A DNA stretch of 62,516 nucleotides, the filler included, from Globobulimina sp. (lineage: Eukaryota): NCBI GenBank assembly GCA_003354225.1. It is 27 parts of 27 records of this genome, joined end to end, with 100 filler letters (N's around TTAATTAATTAA, not from the genome) between each part and the next. Parts side by side here need not be neighbours in the genome. Positions count along the whole stretch, not along the records: positions 23,201 to 25,420 come from PIVH01008108.1; 26 more parts are not named here. One strand, given 5' to 3'. The first letter of the stretch is position 1. Each line of letters begins with the position of its first letter. Both the position numbers and the translations under genes were made by a program. The notes under the pieces are model-generated. The model was not told the DNA's origin. It did not search any database and was given only the letters and a program-made list of their open reading frames with translations. Below are positions 9,281-62,230 of the stretch, piece by piece.

Positions 9281-11420
9281 ACCAAATATTATCACATTCT
9301 CAATAATCGATGATAAATCTAACACTTTTTCCTTTTCCTGCAATTCCTTTTTTTCTCTTTTTTTATCTCTCCTTTTCTTTAGAAATTTGCTAAATTTTGA
9401 CGTGTCTCCATCTTCAGCTTCAGCTTCGTCCGTGTCTTGGTTGTCTTGTTTATCATTATCATTATCTTTATATCTTTTCACTAATTCTTTTAATGCATAA
9501 AATATTACTCGCGCACCTAAAGAATATCCAATTAAAGTGACCGGTCTCCTGCCATGATTGCCCGACGCTAAGCAATCTGCTAAAACCAAGCCAGCTTCTT
9601 TTGATTTAGCAAAGGCCACAGACCATGGATTATCAATGTAGTGCGCCACCGATATTAATGCCACTGGCCAGGTTAATGCGGCAACCAATGTCGCAAATGC
9701 TGTGTAGCCAATACCTACTTTGGCCGCAGTCGTTACAGTGCCGGATACGGCTCGTTTTGCCACAAATTTTTTCAATCCTTCCCCTAAAGACAATAAACAT
9801 TCACTCTCAAATTGTAATGTATAGCAATCGCTTGAAACACAGTTTGGAAGCAATATATCTCGCCAATAGTTTATATTTTCTTCGTTATTATCATCCTCAT
9901 CCTCATCCTCATCATCATCATCGTTATCGTCTGCATCTAACCATCCACTGATTGTAATAATTACATTTAAGCCATTAGTATTTTTATTCAATGAAATGAA
10001 GTTAAAATCATCTATTTGTGAGACTGTATTATGCATTTTGGAGCCGGCATAGCCAGCGCCAGTAACACCAAATAATAGGTATAATGTGGTGGTGCCAGTA
10101 GTGGTTAATAAGAAGGTGGACGTTGCCGTCAGTCCAATGGCGCCTAATCCAGCAGCCACTGCGGGTGCAGCTATTCCACCGGTCACTGCAATTAAAACAC
10201 CAGAAATAACACCAACGGCGCCAATTTTTGCCCATCGACCATAATTTTTTGTGCTTGATTTTGCCTGTTTTTTTTCTAATAACACATGCAAAATAACACC
10301 GAATGAATATTCACGAATAATGAAGTCATCGCGCCATGACAGATTGCAATATCTTATTATTGACTTTAACAGTGATCGTAAGCGCGAATCATAATATCCA
10401 TTGTGTGATATTGCAAATTGTAATAATAACAATGGTATGCGTAATAAATTGAGATTATTTTTATTTAAGTCCCAATTTAAAGTTTCAAAAAATGGCTCCG
10501 GATCAACCCATTCGTTTTCTAAAAAATATAAATAGCCAATAATCTGTTCCAAAATGCAAACAAAACAAAACAAAAACAAAAACAGAATGCATTCAACATA
10601 TTAAAATATATACAATTACAAACCTGCGTGTTTCCTATTTTTAGATATTGACAAAAGGATTGCAAAAAAGACTTAGCCCAAATAAGATTTGTTGATGTAA
10701 GCGAACAATAATACTTTGGTTTCTTTATAATCGAAGACATTATAAATCCAATATCTTCATCGTCATTGTCATTGTCATCGTCATCCCATAATGTGTTTGG
10801 TGGTGCTTTTGTAATTGGAATTGGATAAATCAAATGTGCCTCTTCAATATCATTATCTTCTGTTTTTTCTTCAATATTGTTCATGTTGGCGTTCATATTG
10901 AGATTATTTAATTTAGCAACATATTTATGACAGTGATAATATCGATGAATATGGTTTGTAATAAAACATGCAATAATTTGTGCAATACAATGTTGCTGAG
11001 TTCCTGAAAATTGTGAGGGATCCATCAATTCATTTAATTCTTTAACTTGTTCTTTCAACGCATCAGCACTCAAAACAGAATGAACAGATTCATTCTTCAT
11101 TGAATCTAATTCTTCTCTGGTTGCTTGTGCCATGGCCTACTAAATTGAAAATAACGCACACTGTGAGCTAAACAACAAAACAAACTGTTAAGAGTTAGAA
11201 ATATTTTTAAAACACAATGGATGTGAAATATTTGCGGATAGTATGCTTTTCGAGTTGATTGATAACCAAAATCAGACACCATGGAAATCTTCAATTACTA
11301 GTACATTATTGTTGGTTGACGCATTTGACTCATTTCTCAATTCTGTTATTAATCGATTCATTTCTTGTGAATCAATCTGTTCTCCGTATTGGTCTCTTCT
11401 TAAATTGTCATATATAATCA
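9281..11420 (-). CDS. TMCO4: DUF726 / TMCO4-family alpha/beta-hydrolase-like membrane protein (partial, spliced)
   Basis: TGGIAAPAVAAGLG, IDNPWSVA, GRRPVTLIGYSLGARVIF; introns near 10545-10624 and 11135-11279; 5' end uncertain. Confidence 0.88.
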
Positions 11421-20780: not shown

Positions 20781-20880
20781 NNNNNNNNNNNNNNNNNNNN
20801 NNNNNNNNNNNNNNNNNNNNNNNNTTAATTAATTAANNNNNNNNNNNNNNNNNNNNNNNNNNNNNNNNNNNNNNNNNNNN

Positions 20881-23013
20881 AACTAAAAAGAAAATAAATA
20901 GGAGGATTATCATCATTGTTAATCTACGTTTTATATTCTGTACATTCATACCTTGAATACCATAAAATTCATCGTGATAATTAATTTTTAGCAATGAATA
21001 TTTTAAAAGTTCTTTATATACTCCAAAATTAGGTGGTATACATACTAATTGTTTCATGTTATAATTATTAACATCTTCAATGTCATTAACAGCATTAATA
21101 TCATCATCAATATCTATTTGGTGCTCATCTACATCCATATAATCATCATCATCGATTATTGTGGGTAATAAATATGAATATTTTTTATATAACTTATTAT
21201 TATTTGGATCATTAAATAAATTTTTTGTTTTTGAATGTAATTTAATTTCTCCATTTTCAACAATTATTATTTCATCAAAATATCTTAACAAATATAAATG
21301 AGAATTAATTGCCATTAAACATGTTTTATTATTTTCTTTGAGTAAATATTGTAAAATTCCGTTAAAAAACATATGTTTTCCAATGTAAACGTCAACATTT
21401 GATAATGTATCATCAAACAAAAATAAATCATATTCATCCTTTCGATATAATGTTCGAGCAAAACATATTCTCATTTTTTGGCCACCACTGATATTGATAC
21501 CTTCTGTACCAATAACAGTTAAATCACCATTTGGTAATTGTTTTAAATCCAAATAAATAGCAGATGCAACAATACATTTTCTATATTTTTCTTGGTTAAA
21601 TGGCAAATCCATTACAATGTTATCTCTTAATGTTGAATTTCGAATATATGCAACTTGTGAGCAATATCCGTATCCAGCCTTGTATTCATGATTATAACTC
21701 ACATTTCCTTCAATACATTCCATTTCACCTAAAATCGCTTCAATTAAAGATGTTTTGCCACTGCCGACAGTTCCAACAATGCCAATTAATTTACCTTTCT
21801 CTATTTTGAGAGAGATGTTTTTTAACCTAAATTCATGTCGATGTTGAATGTCCGCTGATGACCATTTAAACATTGCGTTGTTAATTTGGAGCATAATATC
21901 ACTGTTGTTACCGTTGCCGTTGCTGTTGCTGTTGCTGTCTCTGTTTGCTTTAATTATTGATTTTTTGTTCAAATACTTATCAATTCGTTTTGATGTAACC
22001 AATAAACATGAAAGAAAACCAATGGATACAGGCAATATTTTAGTGATTACCTGAGCGAAATAGGTGGTCATAATGAGAGCTACAATGTTGATCGGAGTGA
22101 TGTTATTATTTAAAACAAAGACATATACAATGAATACAATTAATAGCATGGATGATGGGATTAAAAAGTTTAACACCAACATAAATGACAAAAGAAAATT
22201 GGTTTTTGAAACGTATTTTAATTCATTCAATCTGTATTCATTAATTTTATCCATTAACGGCATTTCTGATGCATTGCATTTTAGGAATCTAATGCCTCCA
22301 ATTAATTGCGTGGTTAATTCAACTCTTTTATCGCAAGCATTCAATCTCGCTTTTTGATATTTGGACAGTTTAATTCCAGCAAATAACTGGAATGGAACGC
22401 CGACGAATATCATAAACAAAATGCCAAATAACGATGCAATACCAACTATTTTATACATCAAAATTGTTAATAATATTAGCAAATACATGCCTGTGGTTGT
22501 AAATGTTAATAAAAACACCAATTGATCCTGTAATGAAATTAAATCGGCGCCAATAATATTTAATAAGTGTTGTTTATTGGTTTCATTGATATTTACTGAT
22601 AACAAGTGCTGAAATAACATGTATTTTAAGCATGCAGTCACCCGATATGCCATTTGAATGCTTAACTGAATGCTGAGGGCAGTCAATAAACTTCGTATGG
22701 AAGAAGCTATAAAATATAGTATTGCGTATTTCGATAGTTTCCAAATCAAATGCATTCCCTCGGTAGTAACTGTATCATTGTTTGAATCATTGATTAGTTT
22801 AATTTGAATAAATAATGGATATAAATATGAGCGAACAATTGTAAATTCTAAATAACAAATGATTAACATTGCAAATCCAATCAATATCAACACTGAAATA
22901 ATTATATTTTTTTCTGTGTGGTAAATCATTGATAAAGTGGTCGTTGAAAGCTTTTTACGTTTTCGTGCGTTGTATATTTCCATCCATTTTTTGGATGAAT
23001 AACTTATTGTCAT
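20881..23013 (-). CDS. ABCC/MRP-type ABC transporter, TMD1-NBD1 (partial)
   Basis: GTVGSGKTS Walker A, ISGGQKMR signature, FLFDD Walker B, multiple TM helices. Confidence 0.95.
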
Positions 23014-23200
23014 TTTTTTTGGAAGTTGGGGTATATCCTCTATTTTTAATGTCTGTTTGTTGTTGCAAATCGATATTAAATTAAAAACCCAAATATGAAA
23101 NNNNNNNNNNNNNNNNNNNNNNNNNNNNNNNNNNNNNNNNNNNNTTAATTAATTAANNNNNNNNNNNNNNNNNNNNNNNNNNNNNNNNNNNNNNNNNNNN

Positions 23201-24189
23201 AGTACATCGGCACTATTATTATTTGTATGTTGTTCCATAAATTGCAAATAATTTCGATTGTTACTAAAATCCGTAAATAACTGCATCATTTTCGGGATTA
23301 TATTTTCAATGTTATCAAATTTAATGCTTTCAAATCCTGGCTCTCCATGCACTCCGTAACCCAATTCCAATATATTTGCATCCATTTCATCGGATTTTGT
23401 CTGATTTGTCCCAATCAAATGACATTTATCTGCTGCAATGCCAACGGTGCCAATGTAATTTTGATATTGTGTACATAGTGAATGTATTTCCTTTAAACTA
23501 CATCCATTTTCTGAATAATATCCGGCGATTTTATGTATAAATACACCTCCGGCGAGACCTCGTCTTCCTATACTTGGTATATTTGATCGTGGCAATGCTA
23601 TATCGTCAGACAATGATAATATTTCGCATGGAATATTGTATGAAGTGGCTACGATTTTAGCAGCGAGCGTAAAGTTAAGCACATCTCCAGAATAATTAGT
23701 GATTATTAATAATACACCTTTTGCTTCATTAGCCACTGCTAAAATAGCATGAATAATTGCCTTTTTTTTTGCATATAATGCTTGTGTTTTCTTTTATTTA
23801 TAATAATATACAAACGAATATATGCATACCTTTGTCGTCGGACTGCTGAAAATCTCGCCACAAACAGCTGCGGTTAACATTCCTTTACCTACAAAGCCAA
23901 AGAAACATGGTTCATGGCCAGAACCACCACCAGATATTAATGCTACTTTGTTTACTGATGATTTATCCCAATCACTTCGATAAACTACTTTTATTGATGG
24001 ATCATTTGTATATAAACGAGTTAAATTAGGATTGCTGTATAATTCTCCATCAATTGCATCAAATATTAATCTGTTCGTATCTTTATAGAAATGTTTTGTT
24101 GTCGGCACACCCGCGTTGTTAACATGTTGTTTTTCATCTGTTTCCATTGCGTTTATCAAGTCGGTAATAATCTTCAACGCAGTTGTCAT
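23201..24189 (-). CDS. DAK1: Dihydroxyacetone kinase / triokinase, DhaK domain (3' truncated)
   Basis: SGGGSGHEP, GEIFSSP, NYSGD, GRRGLAG, ELGYGVHGEPG; intron 23761-23829. Confidence 0.93.
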
Positions 24190-24233
24190 TGATCTGAGTA
24201 AAGAGCGAAAAAAACTTTTACAGTTTGAAAACA

Positions 24234-25055
24234 ATGACAACTGCGTTGAACATCATTGATGATTTGCTAAATGGAATGGATTCTGATGAAAAACAAGTTG
24301 ATAAAAAAGCATTTGTACTGGGCGGCTGGAAATGTAATGGAACAAAAGAATCAGTGTTAACATTACTGGAGGGATATTCGAAAATTAATACAGATGGAAT
24401 GGATGTTGTTTTTTGTCCGTCTTTTGTTCATTTAGCAATGTCACAGAATTACAATATGACTAATATGGAGATTGGTGCACAAAATTGTTCAGAGACACCA
24501 TGTGGTGCCTATACTGGCGAAATCGCAGCGGAACAATTGGCAGACTTTGGAGTTAAATATGTTATGTTGGGGCATTCTGAGAGACGAAGTTATTACAACG
24601 AAACAAATGAAATAATTAGCAATAAAATAAAAATTGCAACAGACAATGGATTGACAGCTGTGGTGTGTTTCGGTGAAAGCCTCGAAGATCGAAAAGCTAA
24701 TAATATTGAAAAAATATGTAGCAATCAATTAAAATATATTTTTGCAGCTATCTCAAATAATTATGATAAACTGATATTATTATATGAACCAAAGTGGGCA
24801 ATTGGGACTGGAATTGTTTGTGAGCCAAATATGGCACAAGATACACATAAATTAATCAGAAATTGGATCAAAAATACTATTTCTTATAATGTATCGAAAA
24901 GTATTCGTATTGTGTATGGTGGCTCAGTCAAGCCACACAATGTCGAAAATATAATAAAACAACCAGATATTGATGGTGTTGGTGTTGGCGGTGCTTCCTT
25001 AAATGTAAACTCATTCGCTCAAATTATTAAAAATGTACAAACTGTTTATAATTAA
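24234..25055 (+). CDS. TPI1: Triosephosphate isomerase-family protein (divergent)
   Basis: WKCNG, GAYTGE, LGHSERR, YEPKWAIGTG, YGGSV, VGGASL. Confidence 0.93.
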   Translation: MTTALNIIDDLLNGMDSDEKQVDKKAFVLGGWKCNGTKESVLTLLEGYSKINTDGMDVVFCPSFVHLAMSQNYNMTNMEIGAQNCSETPCGAYTGEIAAEQLADFGVKYVMLGHSERRSYYNETNEIISNKIKIATDNGLTAVVCFGESLEDRKANNIEKICSNQLKYIFAAISNNYDKLILLYEPKWAIGTGIVCEPNMAQDTHKLIRNWIKNTISYNVSKSIRIVYGGSVKPHNVENIIKQPDIDGVGVGGASLNVNSFAQIIKNVQTVYN

Positions 25056-25943
25056 TTAAACGAAATATATACAACTTCTCTCTATTCAGTTGTTCTACTC
25101 TAACTATTCAATTATCGGACTGTTTTCATTTGACCCTATATTGTTTCTATCTGACAGTGCAGCCTTGCATATGACAGTATTTTCTGACTGTTTTCTGTTT
25201 TCTAGTACAATATTAGAAAAACGAAACTGTGGTCAGAAAATCATTTCTAAGTGAGAAAAATAATCAGAAAAGTAAGAAAATCCTTTTTCAAACCAGAATT
25301 TGAAAACGCTGCAGCATTGCATATGACAGTATATTGTTTCTATTTTTCCATATTGTGGTTGCAAATTAATGGTATTTACAGCACAATTGGTACAAAGACA
25401 GACGCTCTACTTTAAGGTTTNNNNNNNNNNNNNNNNNNNNNNNNNNNNNNNNNNNNNNNNNNNNTTAATTAATTAANNNNNNNNNNNNNNNNNNNNNNNN
25501 NNNNNNNNNNNNNNNNNNNNTTGTATAATAGAAATAGAATACAATACAATAGTTTTATCCATTCCTTGGAGTGGATATCAGTGTTTGGTCACACACCAAT
25601 AAGTTGCAAAGTGATTACACATTCAAGCAATAATCAATATGTCCTTTCTTATCAAATCTACTGTGCACATATCTTCTTTTTTTATATATTTATTTTTCAC
25701 AATGTATTCTCCAAAATATTCTGCATATAAGGGATATAGGTACCTCCAATAATAATTCAGATAATACTTTGATATTAAAGTATAGTTACTATAGTAAAAT
25801 AATAAACTCAAAAAAAACTGCAAAAAAACATGAACACAGTTCCGACCATGAAAACCTGGTTTGGTATGCAAACAAAAAAGTGTATTTATTTCACCACCGA
25901 ATCGGTCTAAACAAAACAAAAACACCCAGATCGTCGTTATTGC

Positions 25944-27739
25944 GTGATTTGTAACCACCCACCAACGAGTCTCGCAAACCCCAACATTCCAGACTCAATC
26001 ATACCGCAACTATTCGAAGACTCATCGCCATCCATACCCTCCGCCACACCACCAGCCGGTGTCACAAACACTGCCACAACCAACAACCCAGACGCTGCCA
26101 TCACAATCAACTTCAACAACAAACCACTCACATTATCCTTGCCCTCTCTCCCCAACATAGCCGGCACCGGACCCACTTTCAAATGCAAACAATGCTTTGC
26201 CAGGGTTCATTTAAATTGTTTAAGCCAAGCGCACAACCACAAGCACGCGGACATAAAGCACATCATTTGTCCAGTCTGCAATGGCAATGCCGCCATCCCC
26301 ATCCAATCCAATTACACCAATTTAGAAGAATCCATCGAAGAAGAAAAGAAGTTGTTGCGTGACTTGCTTCCCTCCGAATGTTTAGTATGCGGAGATGTCG
26401 GTAACTTAATATGTTGTGATTTATGCTTCAATGACAATGCCACTGCGCCTGCAAATAACACCCTATTCGTCACCGGCAACATAGCCAAATTAGATGGAGC
26501 CGCACAGTTTCATTTGCAATGTGTAAACATGCACTTTAATGATAACACGCCGGTGCCAGACCCTTTTATCTGCCCCATTTGCAGTCGCGACTATGGTTCG
26601 AATCGATTGCAATCACTGCATTTCTTCCAACGCAAACGAAGGAGGGAACGCGAGTACAGGATGCAAGAAAAAGCGTTAGCTGCACAGGAATATATCCGCA
26701 AGATTGGTTTTCGTGTGGATGAGATTAAAAAATGTGTGTTTTGTCGGGTCAACAGCGATGATACCGCCAACGGCGTGTTCTTTGATGCGGAGAATGAATT
26801 TATTGGCCCCTTCTATGATGAACTGCGCAAATTTAAATATTACGCACATTATCAATGTGTAATGTGGTCGCCGCAGGTATTTATGAATGAGGAAAATGGC
26901 GAGTTTGTCAATGTAGAGCGAGAGATCAAACGCAGCAAAATGTTGACCTGCACAGTGTGTGGCAAACACGGCGCTGTGTTGGGTTGTTATGAACGTGGTT
27001 GTTGCTCTACGTATCATTATCACTGCGCTGTCAACGATGAGCATTGTTATGTGGATAACGAATTGTTTGCCATTTATTGTCCATCGCATTATTTTGTGCA
27101 TTTCTTGTCGGAATCTATAAAGAATAGTCGCGCAACGATACAGCATCAGAATATAAAGGGGATTAACAAAGGCATATTTGAGAAATGTCGATTTGATCAA
27201 AGCATTATACGCAAACGAAAAATTGCAAGATCGTGCAAGAAAAATGATGTTGTTAATCGATATAAATCCACTGTGGATGTGTGGAGACAGCTTATTATGA
27301 AACAGCAACATACACCGTCACATTCGCCGAGTCATACTAAGGAGTCATCCATCGCATCTTCCATAAATATGGCAAACACGACTTATTTGACGAGGCATAG
27401 ACAGAAACAAATTGAATTGTATCAACATAAGAAATTGGAAAAAAAAAAGAAACGCTATACCAAGTCGTTGATGTCGATTGGCGGAAGGAAAAGATCGCGC
27501 AGCTGTTTGAATGGTAATTTGTGTGTGTTTGGTATGTGCAATGTATGCAATTTTGTTTGGCTTTGCAAGCTGACATTGTTGTTCTCTGGAAAATGACTTG
27601 ACGTTTTCCAGTGAACTTTATCTCTGCCTAACAATGGCCTGACCAGACCTAGGCCTTGACACACTTTTGTTTTTTGCAGGTGATGAAGAGGAACAATTAT
27701 CGCCGCATGAAAGGAAACGACGGCGTGTATTTAATTTAC
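25944..27739 (+). CDS. Chromatin protein with PHD fingers and extended PHD (zf-HC5HC2H), partial
   Basis: CLVCGDVGNLICCDLC...FHLQC...FICPIC; CVFC...AHYQCVMWSPQV...CTVCGKHGAVLGC...YHYHCA...YCPSH. Confidence 0.88.
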
Positions 27740-57980: not shown

Positions 57981-59190
57981 CGGACAGAGACGCAGAGCGT
58001 TGATGTTTTTCTTCGTCAATATGGCCATCACTCCGTTCCTCAACACTGGCACTTTTATAACTTTTTAATGATTTGGCTTCATTCGCATCGGGGATATAAA
58101 AACTGGGAGAAAACTGTTCATCGAAATGGCTTTCCTGCGCAGTCTCGTTTGCTTCCTGCGTATAATCAATGTCTTTAATCTCATCCACCATTGAATCAAT
58201 ATTTTTATTCCTGATCGAATTGCTTATTTTTTCCATGTCGTCCTCAGCCATTTCTACTTTCCATCTTGTGGCCAGTCGTCCAAATGTTGAACCTGTGCAA
58301 CAGCAAAATTTAGCGGTGTTAACATTGCATTTTTCATATAACAAAATGAAAAAATTATTGTTTACATAACCTTTTAAATCATACAATTTATTCATTTTCA
58401 GTTTATTTGGATACGAATACAACACAGATTTTTGAATTAGGACAAAAACAGCCTTTTGATATTGTATATTGACACGATATAAACCTAAAAATCCACAGAG
58501 TAACGAATCTTTATTCGATATCATATGTTTATAATATTTATGCAAATTATTGCGCAAAAATTTACATTCTGCGGTGCTCATTGATTTTATGATAAAAACT
58601 GAATCTTTTGTTTTGTAAAATAATTGTCCGGATTTGCTGTTCGTTATTAATGTTTTCCAAAATGTTGTATGCAATGCGAGCGATAATTCTTTTTTTTTAT
58701 TATCGTTTTCGATGTTTTCGGTTGAGATTCCGCATAATTTATATAAGAAATCATTTGAATATCTATGTGTCTGTACATTAAAATGTATTCGCAATGATTC
58801 AAATATAAATGGAGCATAAATATTAAAATCAAAATTCGTGAATTTATGTGGTTGCGTATTATCTGAGCCACAAAATGGACACTCAATTTTTATGCAGGTT
58901 TTACACATCTTTTGCAATTCGTTGGTAGATAATTTGTCTAAATCCATCTTAGCAGCGTCACTTTTGTTGTATAATTTTTTATTTGTTCCTTGTATTCCTA
59001 ATAATATGGCGTGTACCATCTCTTCTTGGCCTATCAAACGTTTTGGATTTGTTAGCGTCGCACTTAATGTTGACATTAATGATGGTTCGTCCGCTGCGTC
59101 TTCGTCATCACTGCCTGTATTTTTAGTATTTTGTAAAGGACTCGATTTTGCGTTGCTTAAACGAGCCTTCAGCTTTGTGATCATTTTCCT
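57981..59190 (-). CDS. Phosphatidylinositol-phosphate kinase (PIP5K family), partial
   Basis: YAPFIFESLR, SKSGQLFYKTKD..FIIKS, SLLCGFLGLY, YDLKG|STFGR across an intron near 58293-58369. Confidence 0.92.
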
Positions 59191-60568: not shown

Positions 60569-62230
60569 CTACCCCAACATCTTCTCCCTCCACAAAATGG
60601 AATGCTTAAAAAACTCCACCACTTTGCCCGAATACGTCATGGCCTTCATCGGGTTCTCGAACTTCTCCGTATTGAACAAGTTCGGCCCCACCACAATGGC
60701 CATGTTCTGCGCTCCCATCTTATTAATCTTCTTAAACCGCGCGATCTCGACGCACATATCGCACAGCCACAGGAAAATGCTCTTGTTCGGCTCGGGAAAG
60801 CCCGAAATCACATTGCTGGCATCCTCCATATTGCCGACATGCTCAATCAAGTCCGGATTGACGCAGTTCAGCAGCGGGTCGGGCAAGTCCCGGAACCACA
60901 CTTTGATCAAATTGGCGTACACATTCACGTCGATCTTCTCCTCCTTCTCCTGCAACTGCCCCATATCGATGCGCTGCTTCACCGCCTTATTGACGCTCGC
61001 ATTGGGCGCCAAGCGGAAGATGCCCACTTGTTGATAGCCGCGGGCCTCCTGCAAGGCGCCCCGCAGTCGCACCAACACCGTGGGGATCTTGGACGCGTAG
61101 TCCGTGTGCGGGATGGCCACCGACGGCAACTGCTTGGGGTTGACACCAAACTGTTTGTTTAAATGCGCCAACCACTCCGGAGGCAGCCCGCTGTAGAGCC
61201 CCGTTTCCTTGTTATGCGTCACTTTGATGCAATGTTCCACCGACGACGGGTTCTTGATACTGGCGTCGCCGCTGAAGTGCTTGCGGGGTTTGGCCGGCAA
61301 TATCTTCAAAATGCCACCCGGCTCCACCGACGGCAAAGTGTCGTGTTGCTGGCTGTTTAAGTGATACGTCGGCGCCATATTGCCCTTTTCCTCCGCGTCG
61401 CGATACCCGTTAACGTTGTTGGCGCCGTGCTCATTGTCCTCGTTGTCATGGTGGGAAAAGAGCGGCGGCGGTGCTGGCTTTGCCTGTGGTTTTGGGGAAT
61501 GCGGTGCTTGCTTTTTGTGTGGGTTTGGTGGCGGTGAAGTTTGTTGGACGTATAAGTCGGGCGCGGCGGCGGATGGTTGTCGGGGTGGTTTCGGAGGTGG
61601 TGGTGGTTGGGGTATGGGATTACGGCTCGATTTGTATAATGTTATGACTGCGATGACAGATTTGAGGAACCTGTGTGTTTGGGCGAGAATGCGTGGTTTT
61701 AGCGAACGCAAATTCGCAACAATGGCTTAACTGAGCAGCTTGTTTTAGTCCAGATTCGCTTTTATGAAATCCCAAACCATATCGATTGCCGTTTTCATCT
61801 GAAAAACTATGGAAATTTTTTGACTTCTCTTTATATGCACATTCTGAGGTCACATTGCAATTCATTAAAACCTGCGAGTTGAGTGCAAAATGTGTGTTTA
61901 AATTACATCGCAAAATCGCAAGAGAATAGGATTGGTTTTAACTTGTTGTGATTTGACAGTCCATGCAAGAATACGATGAGAACTGTCCATGGTGTCCTCA
62001 CAGAGATGGACCTCGGACCAGCCCCCTTCGCCGGCAACGACCCATTTTCTATTCTCTAATTCGTACACGACTGCATAGCATGATTTGATTGATCGCTCAG
62101 TGGATTGATTGCCTCCATTGAAATTGTTTTGTGGCTCTGATTCGTAAAATCTGTTTCGTGGTTTTGCAAATATTTGCGATTTGTGTTTAATTAAATGATG
62201 ATATTAGATATTATAAACATACTCAGCCAT
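60569..62230 (-). CDS. WH1/EVH1 - polyproline - CRIB-like - RhoGAP protein
   Basis: Three introns (about 62151-62222, 61873-61942, 61671-61731) give KWVVAGEGGWSEV...FHSFSD...YGLGF; PPPPPP; IKNPSSVEHCIKV...GLPPEW; GIFRLAP, LIKVWFRDLPDPL, NKMGAQNMAIVVGPNL. Confidence 0.88.

What the first reader, a model, noticed from the sequence alone, without database searches (positions are those of the whole stretch)
24127..24296. Divergent DAK-TPI gene pair whose unrelated enzymes share a homologous 21-aa N-terminal leader
Seen: the DAK ATG (24189, minus) and TPI ATG (24234, plus) are 44 nt apart. Their first 63 coding nt form a diverged inverted repeat: MTTALKIITDLINAMETDEKQ versus MTTALNIIDDLLNGMDSDEKQ (15/21 identical). 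Differences include synonymous (ATT/ATC, GAC/GAT, AAC/AAT) and conservative changes, which argues against an amplification fold-back artefact and suggests selection on the peptide. Established: DAK makes DHAP and TPI consumes it; the leader belongs to neither catalytic fold. Inference: a two-gene metabolic unit with a bidirectional promoter and a shared amphipathic helix that co-targets or co-assembles both enzymes. It could also have arisen by splitting or inversion of an ancestral fused gene. The leader is acidic, unlike a mitochondrial presequence, and lacks a PTS2 consensus.
Basis: partly seen in the sequence, partly recalled or inferred. Interest (0 to 1): 0.82.

Follow-up and report, generated by a model that had tools for sequence, protein, structure and literature searches.

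The report
TPI gene captured its neighbour's leader
In a foraminifer, the glycolytic enzyme TPI carries a copy of the short N-terminal helix of the dihydroxyacetone kinase gene beside it, acquired by a small inverted duplication, which suggests the helix is a portable tag that may place both enzymes together.

Summary
On one 2,220-nt contig (window 23201-25420), a DAK gene (minus) and a TPI gene (plus) lie head to head with 44 nt between their ATGs. Their first 21 codons are a diverged inverted repeat: 15 of 21 residues and 51 of 63 nt are identical, far beyond chance.

- **Origin.** The leader is not an orphan. It is the conserved N-terminal helix of a foraminiferal DAK clade, present in 8 of 8 members including Bolivina and Nonionella, and absent from 17 of 17 other DAKs in the tree.
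- **TPI relatives.** The 5 nearest TPIs lack the leader and end in SKL or NKL, a PTS1-like signal. The window TPI ends in VYN. TPI therefore copied DAK's 5' coding end, and an ancestral fused gene is not supported.
- **Selection.** The copy is still an open, in-frame ORF with conservative changes (simulated P 0.005-0.03), which suggests it is translated.
- **RNA.** Spliced contigs confirm the DAK intron and show the leader inside DAK mRNA. The TPI 5' end was not covered.
- **Open.** Function is untested. A shared localisation or docking tag is my best guess (about 45%), and a neutral passenger is the main rival.

This is a new variant of module capture, of moderate interest.

The parts
23201..23760 (-). 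DAK exon 2, partial. It runs off the contig end, and the Dak2 domain is not on the contig.
   Evidence: Pfam Dak1 1.2e-05 on this ORF. The splice acceptor was fixed by spliced contigs. Exon 1 plus exon 2 translate to 306 aa without a stop.
23761..23829 (-). DAK intron, 69 nt, GT..AG on the minus strand.
   Evidence: Contigs of runs X3, X6 and X7 (two further studies) join 23759 to 23829, skipping 69 nt, CT..AC on the plus strand.
23830..24189 (-). DAK exon 1, 120 codons: leader, linker and the start of the Dak1 domain.
   Evidence: ORF and sequence. Pfam Dak1 2.9e-23. 60% identity to the 712-aa DAK P0121.
24127..24189 (-). DAK leader, 21 codons. This is the native amphipathic N-terminal helix of the foraminiferal DAK clade.
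   Evidence: It aligns in register with the N-termini of P0121, P0242, P0243, P0250, P0123 and P0131. It is covered by the RNA contig X7 record 23, with one synonymous change.
24190..24233 (.). 44-nt spacer between the two ATGs. It is not palindromic and has no ATG on either strand. It is the presumed shared promoter and 5'UTR region.
   Evidence: Sequence. The DAK transcript contig of X7 reaches 24208.
24234..24296 (+). TPI copy of the DAK leader, 21 codons, in frame with the TPI barrel.
   Evidence: 15 of 21 aa identical to the DAK leader. Absent from the 5 nearest TPIs. Predicted helix at residues 3-12, then coil up to the barrel at residue 26.
24234..25055 (+). TPI coding sequence, 273 aa in a single exon, ending ...TVYN-stop with no SKL.
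   Evidence: Pfam TIM 4.1e-82. No SKL in any frame downstream. It sits in a clade (100/100) with five SKL/NKL TPIs.
24113..24191 (.). Left arm of the inverted repeat.
   Evidence: the repeat finder I1, 79 nt, 78%.
24232..24310 (.). Right arm of the inverted repeat.
   Evidence: the repeat finder I1 and the arm alignment.

Best explanation
A foraminiferal TPI gene replaced its own first few codons with an inverted copy of about the first 21-25 codons of the adjacent DAK gene. The copy starts 2 nt before the ATG. The two genes now sit head to head, 44 nt apart, and both proteins begin with the same acidic amphipathic helix followed by a flexible linker.

**Shown**
- The repeat is real.
- The helix is an old, conserved feature of the foraminiferal DAK clade.
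- Foraminiferal TPIs otherwise lack it and carry a PTS1-like SKL or NKL end, which this TPI lacks.
- The DAK leader lies inside spliced DAK mRNA.

**Inferred**
- The copy arose by a local fold-back or template-switch duplication.
- The copy is translated from ATG 24234.
- It is kept by selection because it gives TPI whatever the helix gives DAK. Most likely that is the same address or docking partner, so that DHA to DHAP (DAK) and DHAP to GAP (TPI) run side by side from one short divergent promoter region.

**My odds**
- Origin by capture from DAK: about 0.8.
- The whole statement, including a functional shared tag: about 0.45.
For: **Repeat**
- Arms of 79 nt at 78%. Score 29 against 13.6 +/- 2.0 in 60 shuffles.

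**DAK side**
- The three eukaryote-like DAKs I fetched's list (P0121, P0123, P0131) carry an N-terminal helix in the same hydrophobic register. The three bacterial-type ones I fetched lack it.
- An exhaustive profile search added P0242, P0243 and P0250. I inspected 17 of the best 150 N-termini, and 4 have the helix.
- In the tree, all 8 leader-bearing DAKs form one group (99/100) and 17 of 17 leaderless ones lie outside it. The window DAK is sister to P0121 (100/98).
- P0242 is labelled Bolivina argentea and P0123 Nonionella stella.

**TPI side**
- The 5 nearest TPIs (72-56% identity), including the Bolivina and Nonionella ones, start directly before the KKPFV..GWKCNG motif and end in SKL or NKL.
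- None of the 120 listed hits covers more than 92% of the query.
- The window TPI ends in VYN and sits in a 100/100 clade with those five.

**Which leader it resembles**
- The TPI leader is closest to the window's own DAK leader (15 of 24 aligned residues) and shares 4-10 with the others.

**Constraint**
- 7 of the 12 nt differences are at third positions.
- P(no stop and BLOSUM at least as high as observed) is 0.005-0.009 with uniform mutation and 0.018-0.030 with a 3:1 transition bias.
- At the 6 residue differences, my reading of the alignment is that TPI keeps the outgroup state at 3, DAK at 2, and 1 is undecided.

**RNA**
- Contigs of X3, X6 and X7 splice out 23761-23829.
- X7 record 23 runs through the leader to 24208. 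The only change in the leader is one synonymous substitution, against 11 changes in the remaining 317 nt of that piece.

**Structure**
- AF2 predicts helix 2-18, then a linker with pLDDT below 50, then Dak1 in P0123.
- It predicts helix 3-12, then coil, then the barrel from residue 26 in the window TPI.
Against: - No RNA contig of X3, X6 or X7 covers 24209-24639, so translation of the TPI leader is not shown. An in-frame Met15 (24276) could serve as the start.
- The selection signal is modest and depends on the mutation model. For codons 2-14 alone, P is 0.03-0.09.
- The DAK-to-TPI junction is seen only in the window contig and in run X1, which is probably the same sample. X1 record 5 has only 29 nt on the DAK side, below the tool's 31-nt bridging rule.
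- No other protein with the leader was found: 0 elsewhere in the 27 contigs, and 0 hits among 4 candidates in a word search.
- The helix matches no known targeting or docking family: PTS2 regex 0 of 10, PDB profile best E 0.26, and no Pfam hit on the N-terminus.
- The inner order of the TPI clade is unresolved, so loss of SKL in this lineage is parsimonious but not proven. A second, SKL-bearing TPI elsewhere in the genome cannot be excluded because no genome is held.
Confidence: 0.45

Rival explanations
1. Capture without function. The inverted duplication gave TPI a new start codon and promoter. The 21 residues are translated, but they are only a tolerated passenger on a flexible linker. Loss of SKL is unrelated, or another TPI covers the peroxisome.
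For: The leader is predicted to be detached from the barrel, at low confidence (pLDDT 56-58). No other leader-bearing protein family was found. The selection P-values are only 0.005-0.09, depending on region and model.
Against: After about 19% nucleotide divergence (33% at third positions), the ORF and all hydrophobic helix positions (L5, I7, I8, L11, I/L12, M15) are intact. Random mutation gives a stop in 42-44% of trials. My reading of the alignment is that TPI retains outgroup residues at 3 of the 6 differing sites.
Confidence: 0.3
2. The TPI copy is not translated. TPI starts at Met15 (24276) or transcription starts inside the copy. The repeat would then be a symmetric promoter or 5'UTR element of a bidirectional pair, or a hairpin-forming nucleic-acid element.
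For: The TPI 5' end was not seen in RNA contigs. Met15 is in frame. The two arms share identical -2..+17 nt. As RNA, 24113-24310 would fold into a hairpin of -75.8 kcal/mol, z -8.9.
Against: The differences are biased to third positions and conservative also in codons 2-14 (P 0.03-0.09). The arms have drifted 19-22% apart, so pairing is not being preserved. The run of 14 identical nt after the ATG is not unusual when tested anywhere in the leader (P 0.35). The DAK arm is certainly coding.
Confidence: 0.12
3. Assembly or amplification artefact: a chimeric fold-back junction that wrongly joins DAK and TPI on a short contig.
For: The contig is only 2,220 nt, from a very fragmented assembly. The junction was recovered only in run X1, probably the source sample. 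The X1 contigs break at 24161-24163, and a minor X1 variant carries a 4-nt insertion there.
Against: A fold-back chimera gives identical arms. Here the arms differ at 12 of 63 nt in a codon-aware pattern, and each arm continues in frame into a different intact gene. The independent RNA contig X7 matches the window through the DAK ATG and 19 nt of the spacer (to 24208). It overlaps X1 record 5 (24161-24457, 0 differences) by 48 nt.
Confidence: 0.05
4. Ancient shared module. An ancestral DAK-TPI fusion was split, or an old common tag was carried by both enzyme families.
For: The enzymes catalyse consecutive steps and are adjacent.
Against: The 5 nearest TPIs, including those of the two named foraminifera whose DAKs carry the helix, lack it. 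The TPI leader resembles the window's own DAK leader far more than any other DAK leader (15 against 4-10 identities). That pattern fits a lineage-specific copy. One search searched proteins of 231-2000 residues, and every listed hit carries only Dak1 or Dak1 plus Dak2, with no TIM domain.
Confidence: 0.03

Closest known systems
Capture of an N-terminal presequence from another nuclear gene (plant genes transferred from the mitochondrion)
   Same: An unrelated protein gains a ready-made N-terminal module by copying the 5' coding end of another gene. PMC8317393 (passages read) states that presequences of some transferred genes derive from another nuclear gene, for example sdh3 with a chaperonin presequence.
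   Different: Here the donor is the immediately adjacent gene, the copy is inverted and 44 nt away, and the module is an acidic amphipathic helix. It is not a basic mitochondrial presequence (net charge -2 and -4). Its function is unknown.
Peroxisomal (glycosome-like) glycolytic enzymes with PTS1 in Foraminifera, kinetoplastids and diplonemids
   Same: The 5 nearest TPIs end in SKL or NKL. bioRxiv 10.1101/2022.07.20.500910 (passages read) reports Pex5, Pex7 and Pex19 transcripts. It also predicts peroxisomal glycolysis and gluconeogenesis in Bolivina argentea and Nonionella stella.
   Different: The window TPI has no PTS1 and carries the DAK helix instead. TPI and DAK are not mentioned in that paper's main text (0 occurrences).
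Head-to-head (bidirectional) gene pairs with a shared promoter
   Same: Two divergent genes less than 1 kb apart, here of one pathway. PMC2713978 was seen only in a search listing with its abstract.
   Different: The symmetry here lies in the coding sequence, not the intergenic DNA. The spacer itself is not palindromic. Co-regulation was not tested.
Inverted duplications made at rearrangement breakpoints, or by fold-back template switching
   Same: A short inverted duplicate flanks a junction. PMC3355041 on Drosophila inversion breakpoints was seen in listing and abstract only. The template-switch model is recalled, not read.
   Different: The mechanism is inferred from the layout alone. No breakpoint partner or ancestral arrangement is available.
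Physical coupling of consecutive glycolytic enzymes, e.g. the TPI-GAPDH fusion of stramenopiles (recalled, no call)
   Same: Evolution ties two neighbouring steps of triose metabolism together.
   Different: There is no fusion protein here. The two separate enzymes share only a homologous tag.
AKAP-type amphipathic docking helices (motif recalled)
   Same: Acidic helix with the phi-x-x-phi-phi-x-x-phi-phi-x-x-phi spacing. 7 of 8 leaders fit the pattern.
   Different: The pattern is degenerate. 84 of 383 control N-termini also fit, and no docking-domain partner is known here.

Membership tests
Triosephosphate isomerase (Pfam PF00121) | Full-length TIM-barrel profile match | tested here: met
   E 4.1e-82. 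Residues 27-267 match profile positions 2-244 of 245. AF2 mean pLDDT is 90.4.
Triosephosphate isomerase (Pfam PF00121) | Catalytic Lys, His and Glu (roles recalled from general knowledge) | tested here: met
   K33, H114 and E185 are invariant columns in the 20-sequence alignment A5. They lie in the GGWKCNG, GHSERR and YEPKWAIGTG motifs.
Dihydroxyacetone kinase, two-domain type (Dak1 PF02733 + Dak2 PF02734) | Dak1 domain | tested here: met
   Exon 1 scores 2.9e-23 and exon 2 scores 1.2e-05. The spliced partial protein is 306 aa without a stop.
Dihydroxyacetone kinase, two-domain type (Dak1 PF02733 + Dak2 PF02734) | Dak2 (nucleotide-binding) domain | not testable with these tools
   The contig ends at 23201, inside Dak1. 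The full-length relatives P0121 and P0242 have Dak2.
Foraminiferal leader-bearing DAK clade (defined here) | N-terminal helix in the same hydrophobic register, plus membership of the clade | tested here: met
   Alignment. The group of 8 has support 99/100, and the window is sister to P0121 at 100/98.
PTS1 peroxisomal signal | C-terminal SKL-type tripeptide | tested here: not met
   The window TPI ends in VYN-stop, and no SKL follows in any frame. The 5 nearest TPIs end in SKL or NKL.
PTS2 peroxisomal signal | N-terminal nonapeptide R/K-[LVIQ]-x5-[HQ]-[LAF] (consensus recalled) | tested here: not met
   0 of 10 N-termini match the strict or the loose regex. These are the window DAK and TPI, 3 DAK relatives and 5 TPI relatives.
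Mitochondrial presequence or signal peptide | Basic amphipathic helix, or a hydrophobic core of 8 or more residues | tested here: not met
   Net charge is -2 (DAK) and -4 (TPI). Acidic residues interrupt every hydrophobic run.
AKAP-like docking helix | Spacing pattern of hydrophobic residues (recalled) | tested here: inconclusive
   7 of 8 leaders match, but so do 84 of 383 control N-termini.
Bidirectional promoter pair | Divergent transcription starts within one short shared region | tested here: inconclusive
   The ATGs are 44 nt apart. A DAK transcript contig reaches 24208, 19 nt upstream of its ATG. The TPI 5' end was not covered.

The most novel reading that the evidence does not exclude
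The N-terminal helix of foraminiferal DAKs is a previously unrecognised, portable address signal: a non-canonical peroxisomal import signal or a scaffold-docking helix. This lineage's TPI swapped its ancestral PTS1 (SKL) for it. That would be a natural signal-swap experiment, showing that DAK and TPI are kept in one compartment or complex to channel DHA to DHAP to GAP.
Probability: 0.15. Interest if true: 0.8.

Novelty: new variant of a known kind. Interest (0 to 1): 0.55.

Why it matters
Foraminifera are predicted to run part of glycolysis in peroxisomes, but how their enzymes are addressed is known only from motif predictions. Here one enzyme of triose metabolism appears to have lost the usual PTS1 end. 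It gained the clade-specific N-terminal helix of the enzyme that makes its substrate, by a tiny inverted duplication that also put both genes on one 44-nt divergent control region.

If the helix is functional, this gives a defined 21-residue peptide to test as a new targeting or docking signal. It would also be a clear example of how pathway neighbours become co-localised and perhaps co-regulated in a single mutational step. If the helix is neutral, the locus is still a clean, datable case of 5'-end capture between adjacent genes.

Tried and rejected
- **Whole genome.** None is held, so I could not search the assembly for other leader-bearing genes or a second TPI.
- **Leader elsewhere in the window.** None found.
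- **Word search with DAK residues 1-40.** 4 candidates, 0 hits with E up to 10.
- **Protein atlas on the leader.** No usable hit.
- **PDB profile search with 8 leaders.** Best E 0.26.
- **Pfam on the N-termini of P0242, P0121 and P0390.** Nothing besides Dak1 and Dak2.
- **Rfam on the window.** 0 matches.
- **Earlier findings of this scan.** Nothing by place or by sequence.
- **Sequencing runs.** No RNA holder is listed on record. X3, X6 and X7 behave as RNA because they carry the spliced DAK form. No contig of theirs covers 24209-24639, so the TPI 5' end remains unseen.
- **Metagenome scan for TPI loci, to test synteny.** 1 locus at 38% identity, not a foraminiferal relative.
- **Complex prediction** (window TPI with DAK residues 1-45). 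The tool gave no answer (score 0.00, controls not run). This counts neither for nor against binding.
- **Extra conservation of the first 17 nt.** P is 0.028 if the place is fixed beforehand but 0.35 for a run anywhere in the leader. Dropped.
- **AKAP-like motif.** Too degenerate to use.
- **Literature.** No paper held 'foraminifera' + 'peroxisom' + 'triosephosphate isomerase' (0 papers). Of the 9 papers holding 'foraminifer' + 'dihydroxyacetone', none concerns this topic, judged from listings and abstracts. 'dihydroxyacetone kinase' / 'triosephosphate isomerase' / 'bidirectional promoter' returned only metabolic-engineering and proteomics papers among the 12 listed.
Full report
**What the window is.** The 62,516-base window is not one stretch of a chromosome. 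It is 27 pieces of 2218-2220 nt in descending length order, glued by identical N44-TTAATTAATTAA-N44 linkers. The finding lies wholly on one piece, 23201-25420. The ABC-transporter ORF to its left (20833-23013) is on another contig and is not a neighbour. No whole genome is held.

**Observation.**
- The DAK start (24189, minus) and the TPI start (24234, plus) are separated by 44 nt.
- The repeat finder gives one long inverted repeat, 24113-24191 against 24232-24310, 79 nt at 78%.
- The arms share -2 to +17 relative to the ATG exactly. They are 51 of 63 nt and 15 of 21 residues identical over the leader, with 3 synonymous and 6 replacement codons and differences of 3/2/7 by codon position.
- The best inverted score on the contig is 29, against 13.6 +/- 2.0 (maximum 20) in 60 shuffles.
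- Pfam identifies Dak1 (2.9e-23) and TIM (4.1e-82, starting at residue 27).

**Gene models and reads.**
- TPI is a single 273-codon ORF ending TVYN-stop.
- DAK exon 1 is 24189-23830 (120 codons).
- Contigs from three runs of two further studies (X3; X6 and X7) join 23759 to 23829. They remove a 69-nt GT..AG intron, so these runs contain spliced DAK mRNA.
- Exon 2 runs off the contig. The spliced partial protein is 306 aa without a stop.
- X7 record 23 continues through the leader to 24208, 19 nt upstream of the ATG, and then shows what I recognise as sequencing adapter. The leader is therefore inside DAK mRNA in that related organism.
- That leader carries one synonymous change in 63 nt, against 11 changes in the other 317 nt of that piece.
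- No contig of X3, X6 or X7 covers 24209-24639, so the TPI 5' end is unknown.
- The DAK-spacer-TPI path is seen in X1 record 5 (24161-24457, 0 differences). It overlaps X7's contig by 48 nt. X1 is probably the source sample, and the record has only 29 nt on the DAK side.

**TPI relatives.**
- The nearest TPIs are P0001 (72%; EukProt Bolivina argentea), P0002 (67%; Nonionella stella) and three unnamed ENA proteins (56-58%).
- All five begin a few residues before KKPFV..GWKCNG. They have no leader, and all five end in SKL or NKL.
- None of the 120 listed hits covers more than 92% of the query.
- In a tree of 20 TPIs, the window groups with these five at 100/100. The inner order is unresolved.
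- The window TPI has no SKL in any frame.

**DAK relatives.**
- The best DAK hits (P0121 at 60% identity, P0123, P0131) have an N-terminal extension before the conserved K/RHF...D.IDG. Its first roughly 18 residues align with the window leader in the same hydrophobic register. The three bacterial-type DAKs I fetched lack it.
- An exhaustive profile search of 1.84 billion representatives found 5198 DAK-like proteins. Among the best 150 I inspected 17 N-termini: those whose match began early, those with extensions, and three controls. P0121, P0242, P0243 and P0250 carry the helix. The others have no extension or an unrelated one.
- P0242 is labelled Bolivina argentea and P0123 Nonionella stella. 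P0390 (Bolivina label) is nearly identical to P0123 and may be carry-over between data sets.
- In a 25-row tree, the 8 leader-bearing DAKs form one group (99/100), with the window sister to P0121 (100/98). The 17 leaderless rows lie outside. The leader columns were part of that alignment, which makes this slightly circular.

**Direction and age.**
- The helix is old in DAK and absent from TPI in the same named species. The TPI leader is much closer to the window's own DAK leader (15 of 24) than to any other (4-10).
- The simplest reading is a lineage-specific inverted copy of DAK's 5' coding end that replaced the first codons of TPI. An ancestral fusion is not supported.
- The arms differ by 19% (33% at third positions). 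The window and X7 DAK sequences differ by 30 of 939 nt. By inference, the copy is older than that split.

**Is the copy constrained?**
- Random placement of 12 substitutions gives a stop in 42-44% of trials.
- It gives an open frame with BLOSUM at least as high as observed in 0.5-0.9% of trials, or 1.8-3.0% with a 3:1 transition bias. For codons 2-14 alone the figure is 3-9%.
- All hydrophobic helix positions are kept.
- At the six residue differences, my reading of the alignment is that TPI holds the outgroup state at three and DAK at two.
- This is suggestive, not decisive.

**What the leader is.**
- AF2 predicts helix 2-18 (pLDDT 62-70), a linker below pLDDT 50 and then Dak1 in P0123.
- It predicts helix 3-12 (pLDDT 56-58), coil and then the barrel in the window TPI. 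This is the layout of a tag on a tether.
- The helix is acidic (net charge -2 and -4) and moderately amphipathic (hydrophobic moment 0.35-0.36; shuffle P about 0.05).
- It is not a PTS2 by a recalled consensus (0 of 10). It is not a PTS1, and it does not resemble a presequence or a signal peptide.
- The PDB, Pfam and atlas searches gave nothing.

**Mechanism and rivals.**
- Best reading (about 45%): the captured helix is translated and kept because it gives TPI the address or partner that it gives DAK. That would place two consecutive steps together, downstream of one 44-nt divergent control region.
- Main rival (about 30%): the same origin, but a neutral passenger.
- Lesser rivals: an untranslated copy or promoter-level element (about 12%; the hairpin is a by-product of the repeat), an artefact (about 5%), and an ancient fusion (about 3%).

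**Literature.**
- bioRxiv 10.1101/2022.07.20.500910 (passages only) reports Pex5, Pex7 and Pex19 and predicted peroxisomal glycolysis and gluconeogenesis in these two foraminifera. This fits the SKL ends. TPI and DAK are not named in its main text, and its supplements were closed.
- PMC8317393 (passages) documents presequences copied from other nuclear genes, the closest precedent.
- Searches for this gene pair, or for foraminiferal DAK, found nothing pertinent.

**Verdict.** The interpretation needs correcting: the leader was captured from DAK, and it is not a module foreign to both enzymes. Function is open. I rate it a new variant of a known kind (module capture), with interest 0.55.

Noticed in passing
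window 1-62516 (linkers at e.g. 23101-23200 and 25421-25520): The window is a concatenation of 27 length-sorted contigs of 2218-2220 nt, joined by N44-TTAATTAATTAA-N44. Apparent neighbours across a linker are not linked.
   Followed up: yes
window 25119-25420: The 3' flank of TPI is a high-copy repeat. Summed contig depth is 200-1600 in run X1, against about 5-8 over the genes. It has internal direct repeats (25158-25194 and 25310-25346, 84%) and several alternative joints that skip 151-188 nt.
   Followed up: partly
window 24160-24163: The run X1 contigs break at 24161-24163, inside the DAK leader. One low-depth X1 contig (2.5 of 10.2) carries a 4-nt insertion behind 24160, which would shift the DAK frame. 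It may be a second allele or copy, or an error.
   Followed up: no
window 24185-24208: The related organism of run X7 has 8 extra nt next to the DAK start. They can be placed in the 5'UTR, where they create a short upstream ATG followed by a stop two codons later (the placement is my reading).
   Followed up: partly
proteins P0123 / P0390: The DAK sequences labelled Nonionella stella and Bolivina argentea are almost identical over 324 aa, although the two species' TPIs differ clearly. This may be cross-contamination between the two transcriptome sets.
   Followed up: no
proteins P0001-P0005: All five nearest foraminifer-like TPIs end in SKL or NKL, which predicts a peroxisomal TPI in this clade. 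P0003 and P0004 also carry a roughly 25-30 residue insertion in the barrel.
   Followed up: partly
window 9281-10600, 20881-23013, 25911-27596, 57982-59190, 60569-61726: Other contigs encode ordinary eukaryotic proteins: DUF726, an ABC transporter half, a PHD-like zinc finger, PIP5K and RhoGAP. 9 of the 17 long ORFs scanned have no Pfam match at E up to 1e-4.
   Followed up: partly
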